Assembly (NCBI GenBank): GCA_030141605.1 | Contig: JAQGDQ010001652.1 | Location: 1 to 30,849, forward strand | DNA: 30,849 nt | Direction of reading: 5' to 3' | Source of the DNA: Tubiluchus corallicola | Lineage: Eukaryota > Animalia > Priapulida | Shown here: piece by piece, positions 1,567 through 26,769 of the stretch | Numbering within the stretch: position 1 is the first letter of the stretch | Layout: every line of letters starts with the position of its first letter | The notes under the pieces: generated by a model | The model's database searches: none | What the model saw: the letters and a program-made list of their open reading frames with translations, nothing else | What the model was told of the DNA's origin: nothing | Translations under genes and position numbers: made by a program

Positions 1567-1639
1567 GAGGACAAAGACGTGGAGTTTCAGATCAGCTGCT
1601 CTAAGTTGGCACAAGTCAACATAACTTGGAAAGAAGATG
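1567..1639 (+). CDS. ATRN: Attractin-family exon (first in window; gene begins upstream): EDKDVEFQISCSKLAQVNITWKED
   Basis: tttcag acceptor and G|gtaaat donor (phase 1). Joins in frame to 4039. Resembles the recalled attractin segment DLDMFINASKNFNLNITW. Confidence 0.85.
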
Positions 1640-1757
1640 GTAAATACGCAAACCTGAATATCATTTTTTTTTAAATTTCCATAGCTATTGGTTAGCAATT
1701 CTTCTGTGTATCTAAAGTTATTCAAAAGGCTGTAAAGACAATAACGGCCATCCAATA

Positions 1758-2276
1758 TTGCCGAATTGTAACTGTGGATTTCGATTTGAGTCTGTTAAAC
1801 ACTTTTTGTTGCACTGCACATTGTATCAACAAACTAGGGTTGTTATGTTTGATAAATTAAATGAAATACTTCTGCCTGAAAACCTTAATATAACTGCCTT
1901 AGGAACTAATGATCTGTTGAAGTTGTTATTATTCGGAAAAGATGAATTTAACTATGTTACTAACTGTAAAATATTCCAATGTATACATGACTTTATATTA
2001 CGTACTAAACGCTTCCAGTAGTTTCTATCTGATATAAAATGCATCATTCTTAAATAATCGTACATTAATATTTACTAACCTTCATTTTCTACTAATGTCT
2101 AATGTATCACTGTAGTAAAACTTTAGTATACTAAAGGATACTAAAAACTAAGTATAGTCTATTCTTACTGTAAATGTTTTTGTAAATAGTGTATAAATTC
2201 TGTTGTGGTGAGGATCCTAAATCATGTTGTACAAACTGTCTGATCCAATCCTATAATAAATTATGTTTAAACTAAA
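1758..2276 (+). mobile_element. 5'-truncated CR1-group LINE 3' end (ORF2 C-terminal zinc knuckle plus 3' UTR)
   Basis: ORF 1758-2021 has CxC...ESVKHFLLHC and ends FILRTKRFQ*, typical of invertebrate CR1-group ORF2 termini. AATAAA at 2255-2260 is followed by ttatgtttaaactaaa. Confidence 0.75.
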
Positions 2277-2361
2277 GTCATTCAAACTGCTTAGCAAGCC
2301 CTCGTGATTTTCCAACTGCGTGTAAAAATACCCACTTTTTAACGGATCATATATTTGTTTT

Positions 2362-2480
2362 ACTACGGCCAAATCGCGTTGAAAACACCAGTTCTCGTCT
2401 GATCACCGAAGTTAAGCAATATAGAGTCTGGTTAGTGCTTGGATGGTTGACCACCTAGGAATACCAGGTGCTGCAGGTTT
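2362..2480 (+). pseudogene. 5S rRNA-derived head of the SINE (not a functional 5S gene)
   Basis: ctacggccaaatcgcgttgaaaacaccagttctcgtctgatcaccgaagttaagc...gttagtgcttggatggttgaccacctaggaataccaggtgctgcagg follows metazoan 5S along its length. Box A (about 2410-2424) and box C (about 2437-2455) are recognisable but substituted. It ends in only TTT. Confidence 0.85.
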
Positions 2481-2917
2481 GCGAGATGCCCACACTGTAT
2501 CTTGACACTAGGCGAAGGAGCTGCACAAGCAGCAGCCAACGGCTAGAGGGCGGAGGAGGTCAAGCAACCCAACGGCCATGTGTAGAGGAGTAAACCTTCC
2601 AAATCAGGAGTGGAGCCCCGAAGGCGGACCAGTGCAGCATGCTCACTGACTCCGGCAGCTCCTGCAGCCAACCCGGTGCCAAATGTATCACTCCGCTTTC
2701 CTTTGGATTACACCAGGGAGGAAAAGAGGGGGTTCCTGTTGTCTGGGCAACTCAGGATCTCCATACACCTTGCCCAGGCGTGCGTCCTGGAGACGTTCAA
2801 GGATCGGACTGCTCAGCCACAGTCGACGCTGCAGCTCCATCAATGTGATCAACAACTGACTCTCTTGGCGCACACTCCATTGTCTTCTGAGACGGAAGGA
2901 TGCCAACAAGACCAACA
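2362..2917 (+). mobile_element. 5S rRNA-derived SINE (SINE3) with an RTE-LINE-derived 3' end, full length with TSD
   Basis: 2362-2480 is a diverged 5S rRNA copy. 2797-2859 translates SRIGLLSHSRRCSSINVINN* (RTE ORF terminus). CAA-rich tail. Perfect 11-bp TSD ATATTTGTTTT at 2351-2361 and 2918-2928. Confidence 0.85.
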
Positions 2918-4038
2918 ATATTTGTTTTGGAAACGCAATAAACACACAAACTTTCTACCATTTTGTAGAACTTCTTTTCAAGTTTCACAAATTCCGCTAT
3001 AGTTTTGTTTATAATGGAAATTGCTACCAGGTGCACGGTAGTCTAAATTATAGGCAGAAAGTCAAATTTGCGAAAACTGACCCGTACACTTGTATCTCAG
3101 TTTGCCGGACAAAAGCGGGGAGATGTGGGTCCGAATGTGCCAATTGTCTGCATTCCACGTGAATCTGATCATCATCATCATTTTACTTTTCATTGTCATT
3201 TCTTTGCTTTTTCTATCACCGTTGTATTTCATTCTCCTTATATATTTTATTTCGCGCATTCTGCATTTTTTCTTTCCCTTCCGCCTTTACAAGTTCATCT
3301 GCAAGGCCTGAGCCGATTTCCGAATATCTTGGAAATTTTAAATTTTGTTTTGTTTCATTGTAGGAAATGTGTGTATTGTAATATATCATGTATGTGACAT
3401 TGTACATAATGTCACAGCATTTTGGAAAATAAACTAAACTAAATTGAACACATCTTGATAATCTTATTAGATATATTGTCGTTGAAAGGAAGAAAGGATG
3501 ATTTTTCATAAACCACCCCAAGTATTCACTTTAACACAATTAATACTGAAAAATCATTTCTGATAGTTAAACAAAGATTAAAAACTTAATTAATGGTGAA
3601 CGAGCCCAATTATTGATGACATCACAAACTAACATAATTTTCAACACAAACATATTCCACGAGCGTGTTCCAAGTGTTTGCGAAAGTGCAAATTGAAGGA
3701 CAGTGCTACTGTAAGATATTCAGTGTGTTGTACTAAAACTAGGCAAGTTTTAAGATAAAAATTCAAATTTCAAATTTACCGCTGTGCTTACGCATGAACA
3801 TGTGTAGTACGTCACAAACTAACACATCTGAATAGAGAGGTACTGCACCCACCTGTTTTTTGCGCAATGCATTTCTGAAATGCAGGCGCTATTGCACGTC
3901 TAACTAGCATATGGTGAATGCATGTAACAGTGAAGAACTAGTGGTGCAAATGCGAAATTGTGTTTAAGATTGGGTCCAGTTATGCTTTAATTTTACCTAT
4001 CATTAATAATCGAAATTAACAACCGATTTCTCCTACAG

Positions 4039-4184
4039 ATGGCTTTGAAGGAGAGACGCCCGTGTTCAGTATCGAATGTTCGGAGTTCAAGACGAAGTTC
4101 TCGCGACACATTTACACATTTGGAGAGAAGAATTTCACTTTTTACGTCTACGTTTCTAACTTTAAGACTCCGTTTTGGTTAAAG
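4039..4184 (+). CDS. ATRN: Attractin-family exon: (D)GFEGETPVFSIECSEFKTKFSRHIYTFGEKNFTFYVYVSNFKTPFWLK
   Basis: tcctacag acceptor, AAG|gtgcgt donor, 146 nt, phase 1 to 0. TFYVYVSNF matches attractin TFFVYVSNF. Confidence 0.93.
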
Positions 4185-4720: not shown

Positions 4721-4779
4721 ATTGCATTCTCTCAGAACAATCCTATAGATCTACTGCAATTTTTTGTAACATTTTTTGG
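4721..4779 (+). CDS. ATRN: Attractin-family exon, start of TM helix: IAFSQNNPIDLLQFFVTFF(G)
   Basis: ttttgcag acceptor, GG|gtgagt donor, phase 0 to 2. Matches attractin IAFSQ...DLVQFFVTFF. Confidence 0.95.
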
Positions 4780-5630: not shown

Positions 5631-6499
5631 CACGGAAAGCCGCACTGCGCACACAAAGTTTACCAGTCATCAGTGTGCGGTCACGGAAAGCCGCACTATG
5701 CGCACAAAGTTCACCAGTCATCAGTGTGCGGTCACGGAAAGCCGCACTGCGCGCACAAAGTTCACCAGTCATCAGTGTGCGGTCGCAGAAAGCCGCACTG
5801 CGCGCACAAAGTTCACCATTCATCAGTGTGCAGTCACGGAAAGCCGCACTGCGCGCACAAAGTTCACCATTCATCAGTGTGCAGTCACGGAAAGCCGCAC
5901 TGCGCGCACAAAGTTCACCAGTCATCAGTGTGCGGTCACGGAAAGCCGCACTACGCACACAAAGTTCACCAGTCATTAGTGTGCAGTCACGGAAAGCCGC
6001 ACTGCGTGCACAAAGTTCACCAGTCATCAGTGTGCGGTCACGGAAAGCCGCACTGCGCGCACAAAGTTCACCAGTCATCAGTGTGCGGTCACAGAAAGCC
6101 GTACTGCGCGCACAAAGTTCACCAGTCATCAGTGTGCGGTCACAGAAAGCCGCACTGCGCGCACAAAGTTCACCAGTCATCAGTGTGCGGTCACGGAAAG
6201 CCGCACTGCGCACACAAAGTTCACCAGTCATCAGTGTGCGGTCACGGAAAGCTGCACTGCGTGCTCAAAGTTCACCAGTCATCAGTGTGCGGTCACGGAA
6301 GGCCGCACTGCGCGCACAAAGTTCACCAGTCATCAGTGTGCAGTCACGGAAAGCCGTACTGCGCGCACAAAGTTCACCAGTCATCAGTGTGCGTTCACGG
6401 AAGGCCGCACTGCGCGCACAAAGTTCACCAGTCATCAGTGTGCGGTCACGGAAAGCCGCACTGCGCACACAAAGTTCACCAGTCATCAGTGTGCAGTCA
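5631..6499. repeat. 51-bp minisatellite, about 17 copies, intronic
   Basis: Unit cacggaaagccgcactgcgcgcacaaagttcaccagtcatcagtgtgcggt; period 51 (5631, 5682, ...). Confidence 0.97.
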
Positions 6500-6654
6500 T
6501 GTGCTAAATGCAATGTGCTAAATGACTTATCTTTTCCTTTAATAGCTTCCGTTTCACGGGGCGCAAGCAAAGTTTGTCTCGCAGATAGTAGACGCTCAAG
6601 CCGTGAATGTTTTTCATTCATTATTCATTATTCATTATTCATTTTTTCTTTCAG

Positions 6655-6733
6655 ATGTTTTTTGTCATTGCTTCTCATAGCTGCTATTATCTGGAAAATT
6701 AAGCAGAAATACGATGTCTACCGGAGGAGACAG
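6655..6733 (+). CDS. ATRN: Attractin-family exon, TM helix and stop-transfer: CFLSLLLIAAIIWKIKQKYDVYRRRQ
   Basis: ttttctttcag acceptor, CAG|gtaggg donor, phase 2 to 0. Matches attractin CFLSLLLVAAVVWKIKQ. Confidence 0.96.
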
Positions 6734-6742
6734 GTAGGGAAG

Positions 6743-7697
6743 ACCTGTTAGAAATGCACCTCTTTAGCTAGTGCTAACACTGGCGCTGCTAATTTGGTTA
6801 CCTGTTAGAAATGCACCTCTTTAGCTAGTGTTAACACTGGCACTGCTAATTTGGTTACCTGTTAAAAATGCACCTCTTTAGCTAGTGCTAACACTGGCAC
6901 TGCTAATTTGGTTACCTGTTAGAAATGCACCTCTTTAGCTAGTGCTAACACTGGCGCTGCTAATTTGGTTACCTGTTAGAAATGCACCTCTTTAGCTAGT
7001 GTTAACACCGCTGCTAATTTGGTTACCTGTTAAAAATGCACCTCTTTAGCTAGTGCTAACGCCGGCACTGCCAATTTGGTTACCTGTTAAAAATGCACCT
7101 CTTTAGCTAGTACTAACACTGGCACTGCTAATTTGGTTACCTGTTAAAAATGCACCTCTTTAGCTAGTACTAACACTGGCACTGCTAATTTGGTTACCTG
7201 TTAAAAATGCACCTCTTTAGCTAGAGCTAACACTGACGCTGCTAATTTGGTTACCTGTTAAAAATGCACCTCTTTAGCTAGTGCTAACGCCGGCACTGCC
7301 AATTTGGTTACCTGTTAAAAATGCACCTCTTTAGCTAGTACTAACACTGGCACTGCTAATTTGGTTACCTGTTAAAAATGCACCTCTTTAGCTAGTACTA
7401 ACACTGGCACTGCTAATTTGGTTACCTGTTAAAAATGCACCTCTTTAGCTAGAGCTAACACTGACGCTGCTAATTTGGTTACCTGTTAAAAATGCACCTC
7501 TTTAGCTAGTGCTAACGCCGGCACTGCCAATTTGGTTACCTGTTAAAAATGCACCTCTTTAGCTAGTACTAACACTGGCACTGCTAATTTGGTTACCTGT
7601 TAAAAATGCACCTCTTTAGCTAGTACTAACACTGGCACTGCTAATTTGGTTACCTGTTAAAAATGCACCTCTTTAGCTAGTGCTAACACTGGCGCTA
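6743..7697. repeat. 57-bp minisatellite, about 17 copies, with a 4-unit (228 bp) higher-order pattern
   Basis: Unit acctgttaRaaatgcacctctttagctagtRctaacactggcRctgctaatttggtt. The variant gccggc recurs at 7061, 7289 and 7517. Confidence 0.97.
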
Positions 7698-7768
7698 TTA
7701 CTTTTTTCACAAGCTAACAAATAATTTTGAGAGTTAAGCGGGGTGTATGATTTTTGACTGAACATGCT

Positions 7769-8095
7769 GTACACATAGCGTGCAAAAGTGTCGATCTTGA
7801 TTTTCTCAACAATTGTCGTAGTACTAAAAGTGTGTACACATAGAATGCAAAAGTGTCGATCTTGATTTTTCTCAACAATTGTCGTAGTACTAAAAGTGTG
7901 TACACATAGCATGCAAAAGTGTCGATCTTGATTTCTCTCAACAATTGTCGTAGCATTAAAAGTGTGTACACATAGCATGCAAAAGTGTCGATCTTGATTT
8001 TTCTCAACAATTGTCGTAGTACTAAAAGTCTGGACACACAGCATGCAAAAGTGTCGATCTTGATTTTCTCAACAATTGTCGCAGTACTAAAAGTG
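7769..8095. repeat. 65-66-bp minisatellite, 5 copies
   Basis: Unit gtacacatagcatgcaaaagtgtcgatcttgatttttctcaacaattgtcgtagtactaaaagtgt at 7769, 7834, 7900, ... Confidence 0.95.
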
Positions 8096-8114: not shown

Positions 8115-8270
8115 AGGCTGTTTGTGGAAATGGCACAGATGGCGTCACGTCCGTTCGCCATGGTGTCCGTCGAGTTCCAGAGCAAAGCGGGCAAGCAGTT
8201 CACCTGCTCCAATTCTTCCAGTCATCAGATAGTCAGCTATACCGATTCACTGCCACGGTCACGAGTGAAA
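8115..8270 (+). CDS. ATRN: Attractin-family cytoplasmic exon: RLFVEMAQMASRPFAMVSVEFQ...LPRSRVK
   Basis: ttttcgcag acceptor, AAA|gtaagt donor, 156 nt, phase 0 to 0. Contains the MASRPF motif conserved in attractin and MEGF8 tails (MGRN1-interacting). Confidence 0.96.
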
Positions 8271-8282
8271 GTAAGTAAGCAT

Positions 8283-8342
8283 GGCTGCCTGGGAAGCAGA
8301 GGGTTTGGGTTCGAATCCCAATGTAGGTGCAAAATTTTTTCC
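8283..8342 (+). mobile_element. Possible tRNA-derived SINE fragment
   Basis: Perfect Pol III B box GGTTCGAATCC at 8308-8318. No convincing A box or cloverleaf. Confidence 0.35.
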
Positions 8343-8553
8343 GTCTTTCATATTTGCTTTTGTGTGTTTTTTGTTTTAGATTTGCACTGCGCTTCTTGAA
8401 GTTTGTTTACTTAGACTTAAAGTTTGGTGTAATTTTAAGAACTTTTCATTTATTTGGTGAAAAAATATTTAATTTTAAGCGAACTATTGCCACTTGCAGT
8501 GATTCGAATTTGGTTTAGAGTTTTTGACAAGCCCTGTACATTTTGTTTTCCAG

Positions 8554-8718
8554 GAAAAAGCAATCCCTGTATCACTAGAACCGTGTTTTGACCACCGGGC
8601 CGCAGTGTTATCATTAATAGTCGAACTACCTAAGGGTAGTCAAGCATACACACCATATACTGCTACGGGTATTGCAATAGCATCATCGCTAGTACAATTA
8701 GGGGCACACCATAAACAG
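8554..8718 (+). CDS. ATRN: Attractin-family cytoplasmic exon: EKAIPVSLEPCFDHRAAVLSLIVELPKG...GIAIASSLVQLGAHHKQ
   Basis: ttttccag acceptor, CAG|gtgagt donor, 165 nt, phase 0 to 0. Matches attractin PIALEPCF...AAVLSVFVRLPRG...GLAVASALV. Confidence 0.96.
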
Positions 8719-9003
8719 GTGAGTTTTTCCTGCTTCTCTGTGGAATTCGATGTTCATACTTATCAGCATACACACCATATACTGCTACGGGTATTGCAAT
8801 AGCATCATCGCTAGTACAATTAGGGGCACACCATAAACAGGTGAGTTTTTCCTGCTTCTCTGTGGAATTCGATGTTCATACTTATCAGCATACACACCAT
8901 ATAATGCTACGGGTATAGCAGTAGCATCATCGCTAGTACAATTAGGGGCACACCATAAACAGGTGAGTTTTTCCTGCTTCTCTGTGGAATTCGATGTTCA
9001 TAC
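8643..9003 (+). repeat. 122-bp tandem triplication of the 3' part of exon 8554-8718 plus its splice donor
   Basis: Equivalent positions at 8644, 8766 and 8888. Donor gtgagt at 8719, 8841 and 8963. Confidence 0.96.
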
Positions 9004-9648
9004 AAGTGACAGCGCGACAAAACATACACCCCCCGTGACTGGCGGGGTGTACAGTTCTGGGATTATTCATGTTTTGAAATGGGTGACAGACAAGATGGCC
9101 GCCGCTGATACTAACTTTAACAATTTTGATGATGTAATTCGATGCCTCGTGTGAATATTAAAAAAATAAATCAACGCATATTTACACAAACAATCATCGA
9201 TTTGCATCCTTTACAGCAACTTATGATTGTTCAGCCTCACGATCCGATCACATCTTAATTAATTAACGACTCAAAACTAATTACAACTCAAATTTTCCTC
9301 CATTTTTTAACCAAATTAATATTAAATCGCTATGTGTGTTTTTCGACAAATTCATCCTTAGTGCGCATACATACACAACGTCTTACATTACCGCTTAAAC
9401 ATACTTGTATCTAAGTTATCTTAACGACCAATCGGAAGCGATTATGGTCATAAGTTGACGACTGTCTGACATACATATTAGGGGAAAAGGGGTGCTATGT
9501 TTGTACAGGGTCTGCTAACGAGCCGCTGCTGTAATTAAGTGCAATTTTTTTATGAGTCACCTGGTACGTTCTTAGCGAATAGTGTAAATTACTAACCATT
9601 TACTTCACTTACTTTCGCTAAACCATCACGTCATTTTCTTTTTTACAG

Positions 9649-9690
9649 CAAGTTGAAGTAAAAGAGAGCAAAACCAAGACGAAGAAATGA
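9649..9690 (+). CDS. ATRN: Attractin-family terminal coding exon: QVEVKESKTKTKK* (in-frame extension to TAG at 9730-9732 if TGA is read through)
   Basis: Strong acceptor ttttcttttttacag, phase 0. The other two frames stop within 4 codons. Basic tail as in attractins. Confidence 0.8.
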   Translation, partial: QVEVKESKTKTKK

Positions 9691-9907
9691 CGTCTGGGAC
9701 ACCTGGTGGTCACACGCGCAACTACTATATAGCATTATGTAAATCGAATATCGTGATATGTATTATAGGTGACTTGTACAGTTCATATCGGATGCACACT
9801 TTATGTATTGTCTATGTATTTAATGAATACCGATGCACAGCTTTTATATTATTTGTTTAACTTATTAATATGATAATTAAAGTGGAAATTGGAAAATTTC
9901 TGCTTGC

Positions 9908-10872
9908 GAACGTGTGCGTGATTGTAGCCGCCACGTGTCCGTCTTGTTAAACGTTTTACTCGCTCAGTGTGAAGATTCTGTGTAAATTTTTGCACGTAAG
10001 TTCTACGCAGAGGTAAAGAATCTCGTAAGAACGTGTGCGTGATTGTAGCCGCCACGTGTCCGTCTTGTTAAACGTTTTACTCGCTCAGTGTGAAGATTCT
10101 GTGTAAATTTTTGCACGTAAGTTCTACGCAGAGGTAAAGAATCTCGTAAGAACGTGTGCGTGATTGTAGCCGCCACGTGTCCGTCTTGTTAAACGTTTTA
10201 CTCGCTCAGTGTGAAGATTCTGTGTAAATTTTTGCACGTAAGTTCTACGCAGAGGTAAAGAATCTCGTAAGAACGTGTGCGTGATTGTAGCCGCCACGTG
10301 TCCGTCTTGTTAAACGTTTTACTCGCTCAGTGTGAAGATTCTGTGTAAATTTTTGCACGTAAGTTCTACGCAGAGGTAAAGAATCTCGTAAGAACGTGTG
10401 CGTGATTGTAGCCGCCACGTGTCCGTCTTGTTAAACGTTTTACTCGCTCAGTGTGAAGATTCTGTGTAAATTTTTGCACGTAAGTTCTACGCAGAGGTAA
10501 AGAATCTCGTAAGAACGTGTGCGTGATTGTAGCCGCCACGTGTCCATCTTGTTAAACGTTTTACTCGCTCAGTGTGAAGATTCTGTGTAAATTTTTGCAC
10601 GTAAGTTCTACGCAGAGGTAAAGAATCTCGTAAGAACGTGTGCGTGATTGTAGCCGCCACGTGTCCGTCTTGTTAAACGTTTTACTCGCTCAGTGTGAAG
10701 ATTCTGTGTAAATTTTTGCACGTAAGTTCTACGCAGAGGTAAAGAATCTCGTAAGAACGTGTGCGTGATTGTAGCCGCCACGTGTCCGTCTTGTTAAACG
10801 TTTTACTCGCTCAGTGTGAAGATTCTGTGTAAATTTTTGCACGTAAGTTCTACGCAGAGGTAAAGAATCTCG
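9908..10872. repeat. 121-bp tandem repeat, 8 near-identical copies, in or just after the attractin 3' UTR
   Basis: Period 121 (9908, 10029, 10150, ...). I saw only one variant base, near 10546. Confidence 0.97.
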
Positions 10873-20779: not shown

Positions 20780-22452
20780 GGAAGCTCACTAGCACATGAG
20801 GTCATCGGGCAGAAACTTATTTGCACAGGAATGCTTTGGACAGAAGCTCACTTGCACAGGAATTCTTTGCACAGAAGCTCACTTGCACAGGAGTTCATTG
20901 GACAGAAGCTCACATGCACAGGAATTCCTTGGACAGAAGCTCGCTTGCACAGGAATTCTTTGGACAGAAGCTCATTGGCCCAGGAATTTCTTGGACAGAA
21001 GCTCGCTTGCACAGGAATTCTTTGGACAGAAGCTCACTTGCACAGGAATTCTTTGGACAGAAGCTCACTTGCACAGGAATTTCTTGGACAGAAGCTCACA
21101 TGCACAGGAATTTCTTGGATAGAAGCTCACTGGCCCAGGAATTTCTTGGACAGAAGCTCATTGGCCCAGGAATTTCTTGGACAGAAGCTCACTGGCCCAG
21201 GAATTTCTTGGACAGAAGCTCATTGGCCCAGGAATTTCTTGGACAGAAGCTCACTGGCCCAGGAATTTCTTGGATAGAAGCTCACTGGCCCAGGAATTTC
21301 TTGGACAGAAGCTCACTGGCCCAGGAATTTCTTGGACAGAAGCTCACTTGCACAGGAATTTCTTGGTCAGAAGCTCACTGGCCCAGGAATTTCTTGGACA
21401 GAAGCTCACTGGCTCAGGAATTCCTCAGACAGAAGCTCACTGGCCCAGGAATTTCTTGGACAGAAGCTCACTTGCACAGGAATTTCTTGGCCAGAAGCTC
21501 ACTTGCTCAGGAATTCCTCGGACAGAAGCTCACTGGCCCAGGAATTTCTTGGACAGAAGTTCACTGGCTCAGGAATTCCTCGGACAGAAGCTCACTTGCT
21601 CAGGAATTCCTTGGACAGAAGCTCACTTGCACAGGAATTCTTTGGACAGAAGTTCACTTGCACAGGAATTCTTTGGACAGAAGCTCACTGGCTCAGGAAT
21701 GTCTTGGACAGAAGCTCACTGGCCCAGGAATTTCTTGGACAGAAGCTCACTGGCCCAGGAATTTCTTGGACAGAAGCTCACTGGCTCAGGAATTCCTCAG
21801 ACAGAAGCTCTCTGGCCCAGGAATTTCTTGGACAGAAGCTCACTGGCCCAGGAATTTCTTGGACAGAAGCTCACTGGCCCAGGAATTTCTTGGACAGAAG
21901 CTCACTGGCCCAGGAATTTCTTGGACAGAAGCTCACTGGCTCAGGAATTCCTCAGACAGAAGCTCACTGGCCCAGGAATTTCTTGGACAGAAGCTCACTG
22001 GCCCAGGAATTTCTTGGATAGAAGCTCACTGGCCCAGGAATTTCTTGGACAGAAGCTCACTGGCCCAGGAATTTCTTGGACAGAAGCTCACTGGCCCAGT
22101 AATTTCTTGGACAGAAGCTCACTGGCTCAGGAATTCCTCAGACAGAAGCTCACTGGCCCAGGTATTTCTTGGACAGAAGCTCACTTGCACAGGAATTTCT
22201 TGGTCAGAAGCTCACTGGCCCAGGAATTTCTTGGACAGAAGCTCACTGGCCCAGGAATTTCTTGGACAGAAGTTCACTGGCTCAGGAATTCCTCGGACAG
22301 AAGCTCACTTGCTCAGGAATTCCTTGGACAGAAGCTCACTTGCACAGGAATTCTTTGGACAGAAGTTCACTTGCACAGGAATTCTTTGGACAGAAGCTCA
22401 CTGGCTCAGGAATTCCACGGACAGAAGCTCACTTGCTAAGGAATTCCTTGGA
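20780..22452. repeat. 31-bp minisatellite, about 54 copies
   Basis: Unit ggacagaagctcactggcccaggaatttctt, with ttgcac and ggctc variants. Confidence 0.97.
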
Positions 22453-23255
22453 CCAGTGAGCTCTAGCCATGTGGATTCTAACCGGACGAACTCTATGTCA
22501 GTAAGTTCCTTCTTGGTGAGCCTTGGACCTGTGAGCTCTAGTCGTGTGGGTTCTAACCGGACGAACTCTTCATCAGTAAATTCATTCTTGGTGAGCCTTG
22601 GACCAGTGAGCTCTAGTCGTGTGGGTTCTAACCGGACAAACTCTACATCAGTAAGTTCCTTCTTGGTGAGCCTTGGACCAGTGAGCTCTAGTCGTGTGGG
22701 TTCTAACCGGAGGAACTCTACATTAGTAAGTTCCTTCTTGGTGAGCCTTGGACCAGTGAGATCTAGTCGAGTGGGTTCTAACCGGACGAACTCTACATTA
22801 GTAAGTTCCTTCTTGGTGACCTTGGACCAGTGAGCTCTAGTCGTGTGGGTTCTAACCAGACGAACTCTACGTCAGTAAGTTCCTTCTTGGTGAGCCTTGG
22901 ACCAGTGAGCTCTAGCTGTGTGGGTTCTAACTGGACGAACTCTATGTCAGTAAATTCCTACTTGGTGAGCGTTGGACCAGTGAGCTCTAGTCGTGTGGGT
23001 TCTAACCACACGAACTCTACGTCAGTAAGTTCCTACTTGGTGAGCCTTGGACCAGTGGGCTCTAGTCGTGTGGGTTCTAACCAGACGAACTCTACGTCAG
23101 TAAGTTCCTTTTTGGTGAGCCTTGGACCAGTGAGCTCTAGTCGTGTGGGTTCTAACTGGAAGAACTCTACGTCAGTAAGTTCCTTCTTGGTGAGCGTTGG
23201 ACCAGTGAGCTCCTCTCCAGTGAGTTCTAGTCCTGTGATCGAGCCCAGTGAGCTC
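22447..23255. repeat. 75-bp minisatellite, about 10 copies, abutting the 31-bp array
   Basis: Unit cttggaccagtgagctctagtcgtgtgggttctaaccggacgaactctacRtcagtaagttccttcttggtgagc; period 75 (22597, 22672). Confidence 0.96.
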
Positions 23256-23439
23256 TTTTCTGGCAAAACTTTGATCATTGAGCTCCAACTGAAAGACCTC
23301 TGCCCACCCTACTGGCTAAGTAGGTGGTTTCAGCAGACTTGAAACAATTCCTCACCTTTGTTGACCAATTTAACGCCTTCGCCTCTGTGAATCCCACGCA
23401 TTACAATTACGCGAGGCAAGAATGAAACCCGCTGTGTGC

Positions 23440-23658
23440 AACCCCGCCCCCAAGCAGCGATGACGTCATCAGTGTACACGTCTCTGGTGGGGCTTTTGCC
23501 GCGTGATTTATAACCCTGTGGGAAAACTAACCACTTTTACTATAATCGTCGGAATTGGCTCAGTTTAGTGTGTTTGGACGTTTGGAGCTACCGTAGAAAA
23601 GCATTCACACGTTTTCCTTTCAGACTTTTGCGGTTTTACTAGTTGTGTTTAGGTAAGC
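23440..23658 (+). promoter_or_regulatory. Candidate Pol II promoter and non-coding first exon of an unidentified downstream gene
   Basis: GC box ccccgcccc 23442-23450, CRE TGACGTCA 23461-23468, TGTGGGAA (CSL-type) 23517-23524, Inr-like TCAGTT 23560-23565, donor AG|GTAAGC at 23653. Locally CpG-retaining. Confidence 0.5.
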
Positions 23659-24080
23659 AAAACTTTCTTATACGATGTGTCACTCGTGCTTTATTTTTTC
23701 CGTATTTTTTTAAATTTCGTAATTTTCCTTTTGTTTTTGCATCTGCACTTATCTGAAATTTGGTAAAATAAAAATGCTTTCAGTTTTTTTAATTTGATTA
23801 AAACGTAATTACTCTTATACTGTCAAGTTAATTTTTAATTCAAATTTAAATTCTGTTCTAAAATGGCTTTTGTCTAATTTACCCGTAAGGTATGGGCCAT
23901 AATAAAAAAAAACCATGAAAATATGAGTAATGGTTCTGAAAAAGAACCATTTTAAACAATTTGTTGGCGATAGAAAGAGCCATGAATGCAATTTTCTGGT
24001 AAAGAATTCCACAGATAAGAAGTCCCGGGGAAAACTGGATTTATAAATTTGGTAGTTTTCTTGCATGGACCACGTAGGCA

Positions 24081-24523
24081 GATCGCAATGCTCTTGATCA
24101 AGTTGTTAAATCCGCGTCAAAATTGGTAGGAATTGAACAGCAATCTATGGCATATTTGGGTTGCAAAGAGAAGGCAAGTTATCATGTAAGATGAATTCCA
24201 TCCAGGTAATAAATATTTTGAAATTCTCCCCTCTGCTCGTAGATTCCACTCAATTAACGCTAAAACCACGAGAACTTTAAATTCTTTCTATCCGGTTGTA
24301 ATTCGCGGCATCAATAGTAAATTTCAGTAAATCTCCAATATTAATTCTCTATGTCACTGTACAACTGATTGAATTATTTGTGTTAATCTCCTTGTTGTTT
24401 CCATAAGTTACTGCAGTATGTATAACCTACAAAAATTTCATTGTATGTATTATGTTATAATGACAATAAATTGCTTACTTACTTACTTACTAACTTACTT
24501 ACTTACTTACTTACTTACCTACC

Positions 24524-24557
<34 letters not shown>
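24081..24557 (+). mobile_element. 5'-truncated Rex1/Babar-like LINE 3' end with a (CTTA)n tail
   Basis: Disrupted peptide DRNALDQVVKSASKLVG / DEFHPGNKYFEILPSARRFHSINAKTTRTLNSFYPVVIRGIN resembles the HP..F.LLPSGRR....T.R..NSF.P ORF2 end. AATAAA near 24465 is followed by (ctta)n. The tail is duplicated at about 24631-24690. Confidence 0.82.
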
Positions 24558-24839
24558 TAAGCTGAGATAATGCAACATCTGAAATAAAAGCTAGCACACC
24601 ACATACAGTTACAGATACGTAAAGCCACATAAATTTCGTTGTATGTATTATGCTATAATGACAATAAATTGCTTACTTACTTACCTCACTTAATGTTACC
24701 TCGGTGTGTTATTTTACTTTTAATATTTGTTTTTCCTTCTTCTGTATTTTTAACAACTGTGTGCTTAGAACACTATTTACGATTATTCGTCCATGCTGTA
24801 TAAATAGAGAATATAATTAAATATAAGGTAACATAATAA

Positions 24840-25333
24840 TTTATCGGTCAATTATCTACTGAAGCCCATATGGTGCACTGTAGAGACTGTCTGCATTCTC
24901 TAGCCTTTATGGAACCTTTCATTAGAGCATTTAGGCATAATTAATCAGTTCAATGGACAGGTAGATCATACAGGTGAAAGAGCAGAGGCCAACAGCCGTG
25001 AGAGAAACGAGACCAAAAGCTGTAGGTTTTAGAGTGAATATCTTGCTCATTGAAGGTGTGTGTCGCCTCTTTTGAAGCCTATATGAAGCCTCTTTTGTTG
25101 GTGCTTCAATGGAGAGTGCATTTAAGATGTCTGAACGCTTTCCTAACTGTCGACAGTTTCTAAAACTCGTTTTCCTGTCGCTTTTCTGTGGACATTCCCA
25201 AACGTAGAGGAGCTGCTTTAGATCCAGTTTTCCCCAGAGCCTCTTAGCTGTGGAATTCCTTTCGTAGAAAATAAGTTTTCCTGTTGACTGCAACCTTCCT
25301 AGCTTCAGCATGAACGTTAGCAGATTCATTTAA
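24840..25333 (+). mobile_element. Highly decayed CR1/Jockey-type LINE ORF2 C-terminal remnant
   Basis: Frame-shifted pieces SLFCWCFNGEC, PRAS*LWNSF and SFPVDCNLPSFSMNVSRFI* resemble recalled ORF2 endings SLFYRYF.G.C ... PRT..LWNSLP...FP..Y.L..FK..V.R.L. Confidence 0.5.
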
Positions 25334-25353
25334 TCAGTAGTAAATTTGCTATA

Positions 25354-25780
25354 CAGGGTGGTGCACGAAAAATGTACCGAAGTTTGGACTGCAATAGTAG
25401 GGGAAGCAAGTACTCAACAAAGTTGAAATTCCACAGCACGATACTGTGACATAATAGCTTTCGGCTTTGAAAGTTACAAGTTTATAGCTCAAGTGGTTTT
25501 TAAGTTATGAATAAAAAGTTTTGCATGTTAAAAATTTAAATACAGGAATAATGCTAATCATTAATTGAAATCAGCAAATTAATTTATGCGCATCGAATCT
25601 ACACCATAATTCATACATAACGACGAACGGTCACTACGGTCACAAGTGTTTTGTCCCCTGGATAGCTGTATCTGGAATTTCCTTGAATAGAAAGTGCAGG
25701 ACGGTCTCACAGAACCGTTTGATGCAGAGGAACTAAAGGCAAAAAATGTTGAGTTCTGGAACGAAACTCCAAACACCCTT
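25354..25780. mobile_element. Possible old Tc1/mariner MITE
   Basis: TA|CAGGGTG... left end and ...CACCCTT|TA right end. The TIR match is short and degenerate. Confidence 0.4.
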
Positions 25781-25787
25781 TATCGAA

Positions 25788-26769
25788 GTGAGAAACTGTA
25801 TCAGCTGTTAGGAAAAAGTCTCTCCGTCTAGGTGAGACACTGTATCAGCTGTTAGGAAAAAGTCTCTCCGTCTAGGTGAGACACTGTATCAGCTGTTAGG
25901 AAAAAGTCTCTCCGTCTAGGTGAGAAACTGTATCAGCTGTTAGGAAAAAGTCTCTCCGTCTAGGTGAGAAACTGTATCAGCTGTTAGGAAAAAGTCTCTC
26001 CGTCTAGGTGAGAAACTGTATCAGCTGTTAGGAAAAAGTCTCCGTCTAGGTCAGAAACTGTCAGCTGTTAGGAAAAAGTCTCCGTCTAGGTGAGAAACTG
26101 TATCAGCTGTTAGGAAAAAGTCTCCGTCTAGGTGAGAAACTGTATCAGCTGTTAGGAAAAAGTCTCTCCGTCTAGGTGAGAAACTGTATCAGCTGTTAGG
26201 AAAAAGTCTCTCCGTCTAGGTGAGAAACTGTATCAGCTGTTAGGAAAAAGTCTCCGTCTAGGTGAGAAACTGTATCAGCTGTTAGGAAAAAGTCTCTCCG
26301 TCTAGGTGAGAAACTGTATCAACTGTTGGGAAAAAGTCTCTCCGTCTAGGTGAGAAACTGTATCAGCTGTTAGGAAAAAGTCTCCGTCTAGGTGAGAAAC
26401 TGTATCAACTGTTAGGAAAAAGTCTCTCCGTCTAGGTGAGAAACTGTATCAGCTGTTAGGAAAAAGTCTCCGTCTAGGTGAGAAACTGTATCAGCTGTTA
26501 GGAAAAAGTCTCCGTCTAGGTGAGAAACTGTATCAGCTGTTAGGAAAAAGTCTCCGTCTAGGTGAGAAACTGTATCAGCTGTTAGGAAAAAGTCTCCGTC
26601 TAAGTGAAAAACTGTATCAGCTGTTAGGAAAAAGTCTCCGTCTAAGTGAGAAACTGTATCAGCTGTTAGGAAAAAGTCTCTCCGTCTAGGTGAGCAACTG
26701 TATCAGCTGTTAGGAAAACGTCTCCGTCTAGGTGAGAAACTGTATCAACTGTTAGGAAAACGTCTCCGT
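25788..26769. repeat. 42/44-bp minisatellite, about 23 copies
   Basis: Unit gtgagaaactgtatcagctgttaggaaaaagtc(tc)tccgtctag; period 44 (25788, 25832). Confidence 0.97.

What the first reader, a model, noticed from the sequence alone, without database searches (positions are those of the whole stretch)
9649..9732. Attractin stop codon sits inside the apparent ancestral tail: candidate UGA-C readthrough that restores a PDZ-binding C-terminus
Seen: the last exon reads QVEVKESKTKTKK, then TGA (9688-9690), CGT, and stays open for RLGHLVVTRATTI before TAG (9730-9732). Known: UGA followed by C is the leakiest eukaryotic stop context, and T-x-I at the C-terminus is a class I PDZ-binding motif. From memory (needs checking), human ATRNL1 ends ...RNRKHLSTRQGTCV and ATRN ends ...QPGTCI. 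The post-stop peptide HLVVTRATTI shares HL, TR and the terminal T-x-[IV] at a similar distance from the conserved ASxL motif. Inference: programmed readthrough may toggle between a Lys-rich end (KTKTKK) and a PDZ-ligand end. Alternatively the TGA is a recent nonsense change (e.g. CGA to TGA) or a consensus error.
Basis: partly seen in the sequence, partly recalled or inferred. Interest (0 to 1): 0.85.

Follow-up and report, generated by a model that had tools for sequence, protein, structure and literature searches.

The report
Attractin tail cut by early stop
This invertebrate's attractin gene has a real stop codon 14 codons before a second in-frame stop, and the stretch between them is likely a decaying remnant of the protein's old tail rather than a working read-through extension, because a second sample keeps the stop but has lost the proposed binding motif.

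Summary
In detail: the last attractin exon has TGA-C at 9688, 13 open codons ending T-T-I, then TAG. The TGA is not a consensus error: contigs from runs X1 and X5 (another sample and study, 6% diverged) both carry it. It lies inside the family's usual tail (22 residues to TGA, 36 to TAG; 114 of 119 homologs have 29-41). The post-stop peptide matches one clam tail better than chance (about 1%) but not the family profile. In X5 all 4 listed exon substitutions fall between the two stops, all change residues, and a 3-base loss turns T-T-I into A-T-I, removing HL, TR and the class I PDZ motif; the 42 bases before and about 70 after show none. No stimulatory hairpin, CUAG motif or SECIS was found. 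Best reading (0.6): a nonsense change cut the tail and the remnant drifts. Programmed readthrough stays possible (0.17): X5 keeps the frame and both stops, and no RNA or ribosome data were available. The scan has noted readthrough candidates on other genes, two in this genome, but not this one.

The parts
1567..1639 (+). attractin exon (extracellular stem, GBD_ATRN part); the gene continues upstream of the window
   Evidence: AG/GT ends; Pfam GBD_ATRN E 6e-4, below the curated cut-off
4039..4184 (+). attractin exon (GBD_ATRN)
   Evidence: Pfam PF24972 E 3.2e-10, 41.1 bits against cut-off 27
4721..4779 (+). attractin exon leading into the transmembrane helix
   Evidence: splices in frame
6655..6733 (+). 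attractin exon, transmembrane helix and start of cytoplasmic helix
   Evidence: splices in frame
8115..8270 (+). exon with the MASRPF motif
   Evidence: translation; motif named in PMC8254101 listing
8554..8718 (+). exon with the conserved intracellular module (likely MGRN1-binding) and start of the tail
   Evidence: 84 homologs at E<=0.001; weak match to the MEGF8 chain of the MGRN1 complex, E 0.45
9649..9687 (+). last exon, 13 codons, Lys-rich end of the protein
   Evidence: best homolog match 32 against null mean 13.8, 0 of 300 nulls as good; top-scoring of 637 candidate terminal exons; no change in X5
9688..9690 (+). TGA stop, followed by C
   Evidence: present in window, X1 and X5
9691..9729 (+). 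13 open codons between the stops: likely remnant of the ancestral tail
   Evidence: GC 56%; match to clam tail P0130; 4 substitutions and a 3-base loss in X5
9730..9732 (+). TAG, likely the ancestral stop
   Evidence: gives a 36-residue tail, family median 34; kept in X1, X4, X5
9876..9881 (+). ATTAAA, candidate polyadenylation signal
   Evidence: only A(A/T)TAAA between the TAG and 11517; use not shown

Best explanation
A TGA stop ends this attractin 14 codons before an in-frame TAG, and the 39 bases between them are likely the remains of the ancestral tail, cut off by a nonsense change and now probably drifting as 3' UTR. Shown: the gene model, both stops, the TGA in two samples, and the X5 changes. 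Inferred: the TAG was the old stop; a sense codon (CGA by CpG decay is one candidate) became TGA before the window and X5 lineages split; the loss was tolerated because the module that likely binds the ligase MGRN1 ends upstream, about 22 residues before the new stop. Ribosomes may leak through UGA-C at a basal rate, but selection is probably not keeping the longer form.
For: (1) TGA kept in X1 and in X5, a contig of depth 9.9 with 13 other letters in 219. (2) Tail is 22 residues to TGA and 36 to TAG; 114 of 119 homologs have 29-41 and only 1 has 25 or fewer. (3) Last 13 residues match the clam Mactra tail (P0130) better than 99.2% of 910 null peptides; residue shuffles 0.5%, base shuffles 1.6%. 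(4) Coding-like GC between the stops, 56% against 27-28% after. (5) X5 has 4 substitutions in the 39 bases between the stops, changing 3 residues with none silent, plus a 3-base loss. It has 0 in the 42 bases before and 0 in about 70 after: Fisher p 0.004, or 0.016 if the double change is one event. The 10% rate is near the roughly 13% inferred for the contig's ends. (6) X5's version scores 1-4 against homolog tails, at null level, where the window's scores 17-24. (7) Lepidopteran attractins have 13-24-residue tails, so loss appears tolerable. (8) Jungreis et al. 2016 treat a stop seen only in close relatives as a likely recent nonsense change (passages).
Against: X5 keeps the reading frame (its only indel between the stops is 3 bases), UGA-C and the TAG, and its frameshifting indel lies after the TAG; these are features Jungreis et al. 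count for readthrough. The absence of silent changes is weak alone: probability 0.11-0.19 at the 43% silent rate of Anopheles readthrough regions against 0.21-0.31 if neutral. The likelihood ratio for neutral drift is 10-177 at omega 0.2 but only 1.3-15 at omega 0.4-0.6. X5 is one contig and could be a paralog or sister species. Most differences look derived in X5, which would also fit retention in the window's lineage only. The relic likeness depends largely on one homolog: without P0130 it falls to about 5%, and the family profile gives no support (18% of nulls score as well). X4 is identical to the window over 9700-9850.
Confidence: 0.6

Rival explanations
1. Programmed readthrough: a share of ribosomes insert a residue at UGA-C and make a family-length tail, so the gene makes a short Lys-rich form and a long form; the long form's end may bind a PDZ partner in the window's lineage.
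For: UGA-C context; family-like length and likeness to a clam tail; first stop, +4 C, frame and second stop all kept in X5; T-T-I-TAG identical in X4; 72 of 119 homologs end in a class I pattern. Unreviewed notes report two other readthrough candidates in this genome; these are leads only.
Against: X5 changes HL, TR and the -2 Thr. Change is denser between the stops than after (p 0.015-0.044), the reverse of the pattern described for readthrough genes. No stable structure: z +1.37, 187 of 200 shuffles fold as well. Not UGA-CUAG; no CAGCAGCA 8-mer. The family's penultimate Cys (88 of 119), HP (79) and Asp (102) are absent. The protein falls outside the pancrustacean clade, where abundant readthrough was not seen. 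None of 14 fully readable attractin ends among 37 metagenome loci has an internal stop.
Confidence: 0.17
2. The TGA is an old, ordinary stop and the 13 codons behind it are unrelated 3' UTR whose length and T-x-I end are chance.
For: Family profile score is unremarkable (18% of 910 nulls as good; 83 of 85 real tails score higher). Length match has a 20-36% chance. The best-match signal falls to about 5% without one clam protein. X5's version shows no likeness.
Against: Best-homolog match p about 0.005-0.016 at the pre-set length of 13; high GC (3.5%); T-x-V/I end (1.2%); TAG is the stop in 11 of 14 readable relatives (related arthropod loci, weak).
Confidence: 0.17
3. The TGA is bypassed some other way: sequencing or consensus error, alternative splicing, selenocysteine or RNA editing.
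For: No RNA run holding the stretch was available, so the mature mRNA was not seen.
Against: TGA present in X1 and X5 contigs. No AG lies between 9685 and the TAG, so no acceptor can skip the TGA within this exon. No better terminal exon among 637 downstream AG sites. Rfam scan of the window finds only a 5S rRNA, no SECIS. No duplex around the stop for editing.
Confidence: 0.06

Closest known systems
Stop-codon shifts that shorten C-termini ('subtractions', recent nonsense substitutions; PMC4494051 passages, PMC5100048 passages)
   Same: A new stop near the C-terminus of a working gene leaves former coding sequence in the 3' UTR with a fading coding signature and the old stop still in frame.
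   Different: Here the direction rests on distant homologs and one 6%-diverged sample, not on an outgroup with a sense codon.
Conserved stop-codon readthrough in Drosophila and Anopheles (Jungreis et al. 2016, PMC5100048)
   Same: UGA first stop, C at +4, frame-keeping indel, second stop kept.
   Different: No silent-change bias, no drop in conservation after the second stop, no RNA structure, stop not shown beyond close relatives, host outside Pancrustacea on my tree.
Attractin / ATRNL1 / Distracted / MEGF8 adapters of the E3 ligase MGRN1 (PMC12752501 passages; bioRxiv 10.1101/2025.09.11.675358 section 8)
   Same: GBD_ATRN stem, single transmembrane helix, MASRPF motif and the conserved intracellular module.
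   Different: Tail of 22 residues instead of about 34; lacks the H-P-D and penultimate Cys common in the family; resembles the short lepidopteran tails in length.

Membership tests
Attractin family | GBD_ATRN stem domain | tested here: met
   PF24972, E 3.2e-10, above cut-off
Attractin family | Transmembrane helix, MASRPF motif and conserved intracellular module | tested here: met
   45-52% identity over about 240 residues to the 40 best stored hits, among them named attractins
Attractin family | Upstream CUB, kelch, PSI and EGF domains | not testable with these tools
   lie upstream of the window; no genome held
Conserved programmed readthrough | First stop conserved beyond close relatives | tested here: inconclusive
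   kept in X5 only, 6% diverged; no closer relative found
Conserved programmed readthrough | Leaky context UGA-C | tested here: met
   window and X5
Conserved programmed readthrough | Silent-biased change between the stops | tested here: not met
   0 of 4 substitutions silent; small numbers
Conserved programmed readthrough | Frame and second stop kept | tested here: met
   one 3-base loss, TAG kept in X5
Conserved programmed readthrough | Conservation falls after the second stop | tested here: not met
   4 of 39 between the stops against 0 of about 70 after; one 10-base loss at 9799
Conserved programmed readthrough | Stimulatory element (CUAG motif or 3' RNA structure); present in only some cases | tested here: not met
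   z +1.37; context is UGA-CGU
Conserved programmed readthrough | Translation past the stop | not testable with these tools
   needs ribosome profiling, a reporter or mass spectrometry
Class I PDZ ligand (pattern recalled, not from a call) | S/T at -2 and V/I/L at the free C-terminus, kept among relatives | tested here: not met
   met in window and X4, but A-T-I in X5 wherever the 3-base loss is placed
Class I PDZ ligand (pattern recalled, not from a call) | Binding to a PDZ domain | not tested
   no paper showing attractin-PDZ binding in listings
Selenoprotein | SECIS element in the 3' UTR | tested here: not met
   Rfam scan at gathering thresholds found only 5S rRNA

The most novel reading that the evidence does not exclude
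Readthrough born from a nonsense mutation: a new UGA-C inside the attractin tail is leaky enough that the full ancestral tail is still made as a minor, possibly regulated isoform in an animal outside Pancrustacea. The window and X4 lineage keeps it while the X5 lineage is losing it, so gain and loss of readthrough could be watched within one species group.
Probability: 0.15. Interest if true: 0.62.

Novelty: new member of a known kind. Interest (0 to 1): 0.27.

Why it matters
If the best reading holds, this is an ordinary stop-codon shift: a tidy example of a coding tail turning into UTR, and a hint that the last dozen residues of attractin, kept in most invertebrates, can be lost. It also warns that UGA-C plus an open frame plus a T-x-I end can arise without function. 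If readthrough were real, it would show how readthrough can start from a nonsense mutation and would give a natural long/short pair for testing what the attractin C-terminus does, which the papers I read do not address.

Tried and rejected
No genome is held for the window. No RNA holder was listed among 6 runs, and the one guessed RNA run X6 laid nothing; this is no evidence on expression. The second read-laying, meant to calibrate X5's silent versus replacement changes in true coding exons, failed because X5 does not cover exons 8115-8270 or 8554-8718. Single-exon protein searches for a close relative found none, nor did a metagenome scan with one exon; these are weak negatives. The ESM Atlas gave only unrelated bacterial clusters. 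A PDB search with the MASRPF exon gave 0 hits. A search of Jungreis 2016 supplement file 2 for dsd, CG5634, attractin and distracted gave 0 (file 1 not searchable; Anopheles rows may carry only gene ids). The same search in the two small Dunn 2013 files gave 0, but at 8,584 characters they are probably not the gene tables. The main text of PMC13278127 does not name the gene; its supplements, which may list it, were not read. Rejected: alternative acceptors that skip the TGA, another last exon in the window, SECIS, hairpin, HL/TR as family features. The mini-exon line used a wrong start and is not used. No structure or complex was predicted.

Full report
Observation. The last exon begins at 9649 behind a pyrimidine-rich acceptor. 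It has 13 sense codons, TGA (9688-9690) followed by C, 13 further sense codons ending T-T-I, and TAG (9730-9732). Seven exons splice in frame with canonical ends and only these two stops. One exon passes the Pfam cut-off for GBD_ATRN, another holds MASRPF, and the model is 45-52% identical to the 40 best stored hits, among them named attractins. The 5' part of the gene is outside the window and no genome is held. Of 637 AG sites downstream of the previous donor, this exon scores best against a profile of family tails, though weakly (E 0.16). No AG lies between 9685 and the TAG, so splicing within the exon cannot skip the TGA.

Is the TGA real? Six runs were listed, none on record as RNA. I laid four of them on 9005-9905. 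X1, the best holder and possibly the window's source, covers 9113-9905 with one difference, in the intron. X5 carries the same species label but is another sample and study; one contig of depth 9.9 covers 9609-9840 with 13 other letters in 219 and shows no change at 9649-9690. The TGA and the C behind it are therefore shared. X4, a third sample, is identical over 9700-9850 but does not cover the TGA. A consensus error or private allele is unlikely.

Does the stop lie inside the ancestral tail? I took the 120 listed of 253 hits to the Octopus attractin C-terminal region (heavy in molluscs and insects, not independent). A strict anchor caught 105 and a looser one 119, dropping P0190. Tails from the V-x-L-G anchor have a median of 34 residues; 114 of 119 lie at 29-41 and one, a moth, at 25 or fewer. 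The window gives 22 to the TGA and 36 to the TAG. The 13 residues before the TGA are clearly homologous to family tails (0 of 300 nulls as good). The 13 after it give mixed results. Against a profile of 85 distinct tail ends they score no better than 18% of 910 null peptides, and 83 of 85 real tails score higher in leave-one-out. They lack the penultimate Cys (88 of 119), HP (79) and Asp (102); HL is in 3 and TR in 0 of 119. Yet their best single match, the clam Mactra antiquata (P0130), beats 99.2% of nulls over 13 residues and 99.9% over 10, the latter length chosen after I saw the match. Residue and base shuffles give 0.5% and 1.6% at 13 residues; without P0130 about 5%. GC between the stops is 56%, against 27-28% after, and is reached by 3.5% of non-coding windows. 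I read this as moderate support for a coding origin.

Is the extension under selection? X5 is the only diverged comparison. Its listed differences are 9640 (intron), 9692, 9701, 9715, 9716, a 3-base loss at 9721 and a 10-base loss at 9799. The four exon substitutions give R to H, H to R and R to A, none silent, and the loss makes the end A-T-I wherever it is placed. Four substitutions fall in 39 bases between the stops and none in the 42 before or about 70 after (Fisher p 0.004, or 0.016 counting the double change once). In favour of readthrough, X5 keeps the frame, UGA-C and the TAG. The lack of silent changes alone does not separate the models (0.11-0.19 against 0.21-0.31), and the likelihood ratio for drift is 10-177 at omega 0.2 but 1.3-15 at omega 0.4-0.6. 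A calibration on true coding exons failed for lack of X5 cover. X5 could be a sister species or a paralog.

Signals. The 153 bases from the TGA fold worse than shuffles (z +1.37). The context is UGA-CGU, not UGA-CUAG. An Rfam scan of the window found only a 5S rRNA. Among 37 metagenome loci, 14 can be read without a break to a family-type end (my count); none has an internal stop, 11 end in TAG and 3 in TAA. The other 23 are cut by introns or contig ends. Most appear to be arthropod and distant. Lepidopteran attractins have tails of 13-24 residues (9 proteins), so short tails exist elsewhere; their DNA could not be checked.

Host. On a 33-row tree the protein sits on a long branch (1.38) in a supported set with molluscs, an annelid, a nemertean and a brachiopod (96/89), outside the pancrustacean clade (99/98). 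No priapulid was in the tree, and unreviewed notes on this genome call it priapulid-like, so the placement is unsure. Either way it is not an insect or crustacean. Jungreis et al. 2016 found abundant readthrough only in Pancrustacea and excluded stops seen only in close relatives as likely recent nonsense changes (PMC5100048: passages, section 6, first part of section 7). Two unreviewed notes report readthrough candidates on other genes of this genome; I did not test them.

Mechanism. Most likely (0.6), a nonsense change cut the last 14 residues, the old TAG and 3' UTR stayed, and the freed 39 bases drift. Tolerance is inferred: in the MEGF8-MGRN1 structure the ligase binds a strand after the helix and a three-stranded sheet (bioRxiv 10.1101/2025.09.11.675358, passages, section 8), ATRN is modelled the same way (PMC12752501, passages), and the weak match of exon 8554-8718 to that MEGF8 chain ends at the L-V-x-L motif, upstream of the lost part. 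Basal leak at UGA-C is plausible from general knowledge but unmeasured. Rivals: programmed readthrough 0.17, chance UTR 0.17, error, splicing, selenocysteine or editing 0.06.

Literature. Seven searches listed no paper on attractin readthrough or attractin-PDZ binding; for most I saw only listings and abstract starts. C-terminal stop shifts are a known class (PMC4494051, passages). Gene-name searches in supplements and a recent Drosophila preprint were negative but incomplete; unread supplements may bear on whether fly dsd is read through. The class I PDZ pattern and the CpG route are recalled knowledge.

Verdict. Real feature, correctly seen, most likely an ordinary truncation with a visible remnant. 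New member of a known kind; interest 0.27.

Noticed in passing
window 8643-9003: Three tandem 122-base units copy the 3' half of exon 8554-8718 together with its donor, giving three identical donors (8719, 8841, 8963). Use of the later two meets a stop at codon 83. The repeat joint is seen in X2 and X4, with depth about 2.7-3.3 times the flank, so it is not an assembly artefact.
   Followed up: partly
window 2361-2479 (+): Full-length 5S rRNA match (84 bits) inside the attractin intron 1640-4038, on the gene's strand; gene, pseudogene or head of a 5S-derived SINE not resolved.
   Followed up: no
window 9733-9809: The AT-rich UTR just after the TAG shows no listed substitution in X5 although X5 differs by 6% overall; possibly a constrained regulatory stretch.
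   Followed up: no
P0057, P0072, P0085, P0107, P0238-P0244: Lepidopteran attractins end 13-24 residues after the anchor and lack the family's terminal motif; worth checking for a hidden in-frame tail behind their stops.
   Followed up: partly
window 8718/8719: The last intron lies about six codons further 3' than in many homologs, whose genomic fragments break right after V-x-L-G: a shifted or different intron position.
   Followed up: no
window 8284-8349: A short element in the intron after exon 8115-8270 is hit by many high-depth contigs in X2 and X4: a dispersed repeat, perhaps tRNA-derived (untested).
   Followed up: no
window 5631-8095, 9908-10872, 20836-26769: Introns and downstream DNA carry many high-identity minisatellites (periods 51, 57, 66, 121, 31, 75, 44); the 121-base array starts 27 bases after the candidate polyadenylation signal.
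   Followed up: no
window 9669-9860: An alternative AG at 9668 would open a 63-codon frame shifted by 2; X5's 10-base loss at 9799 would break it. Probably chance.
   Followed up: partly
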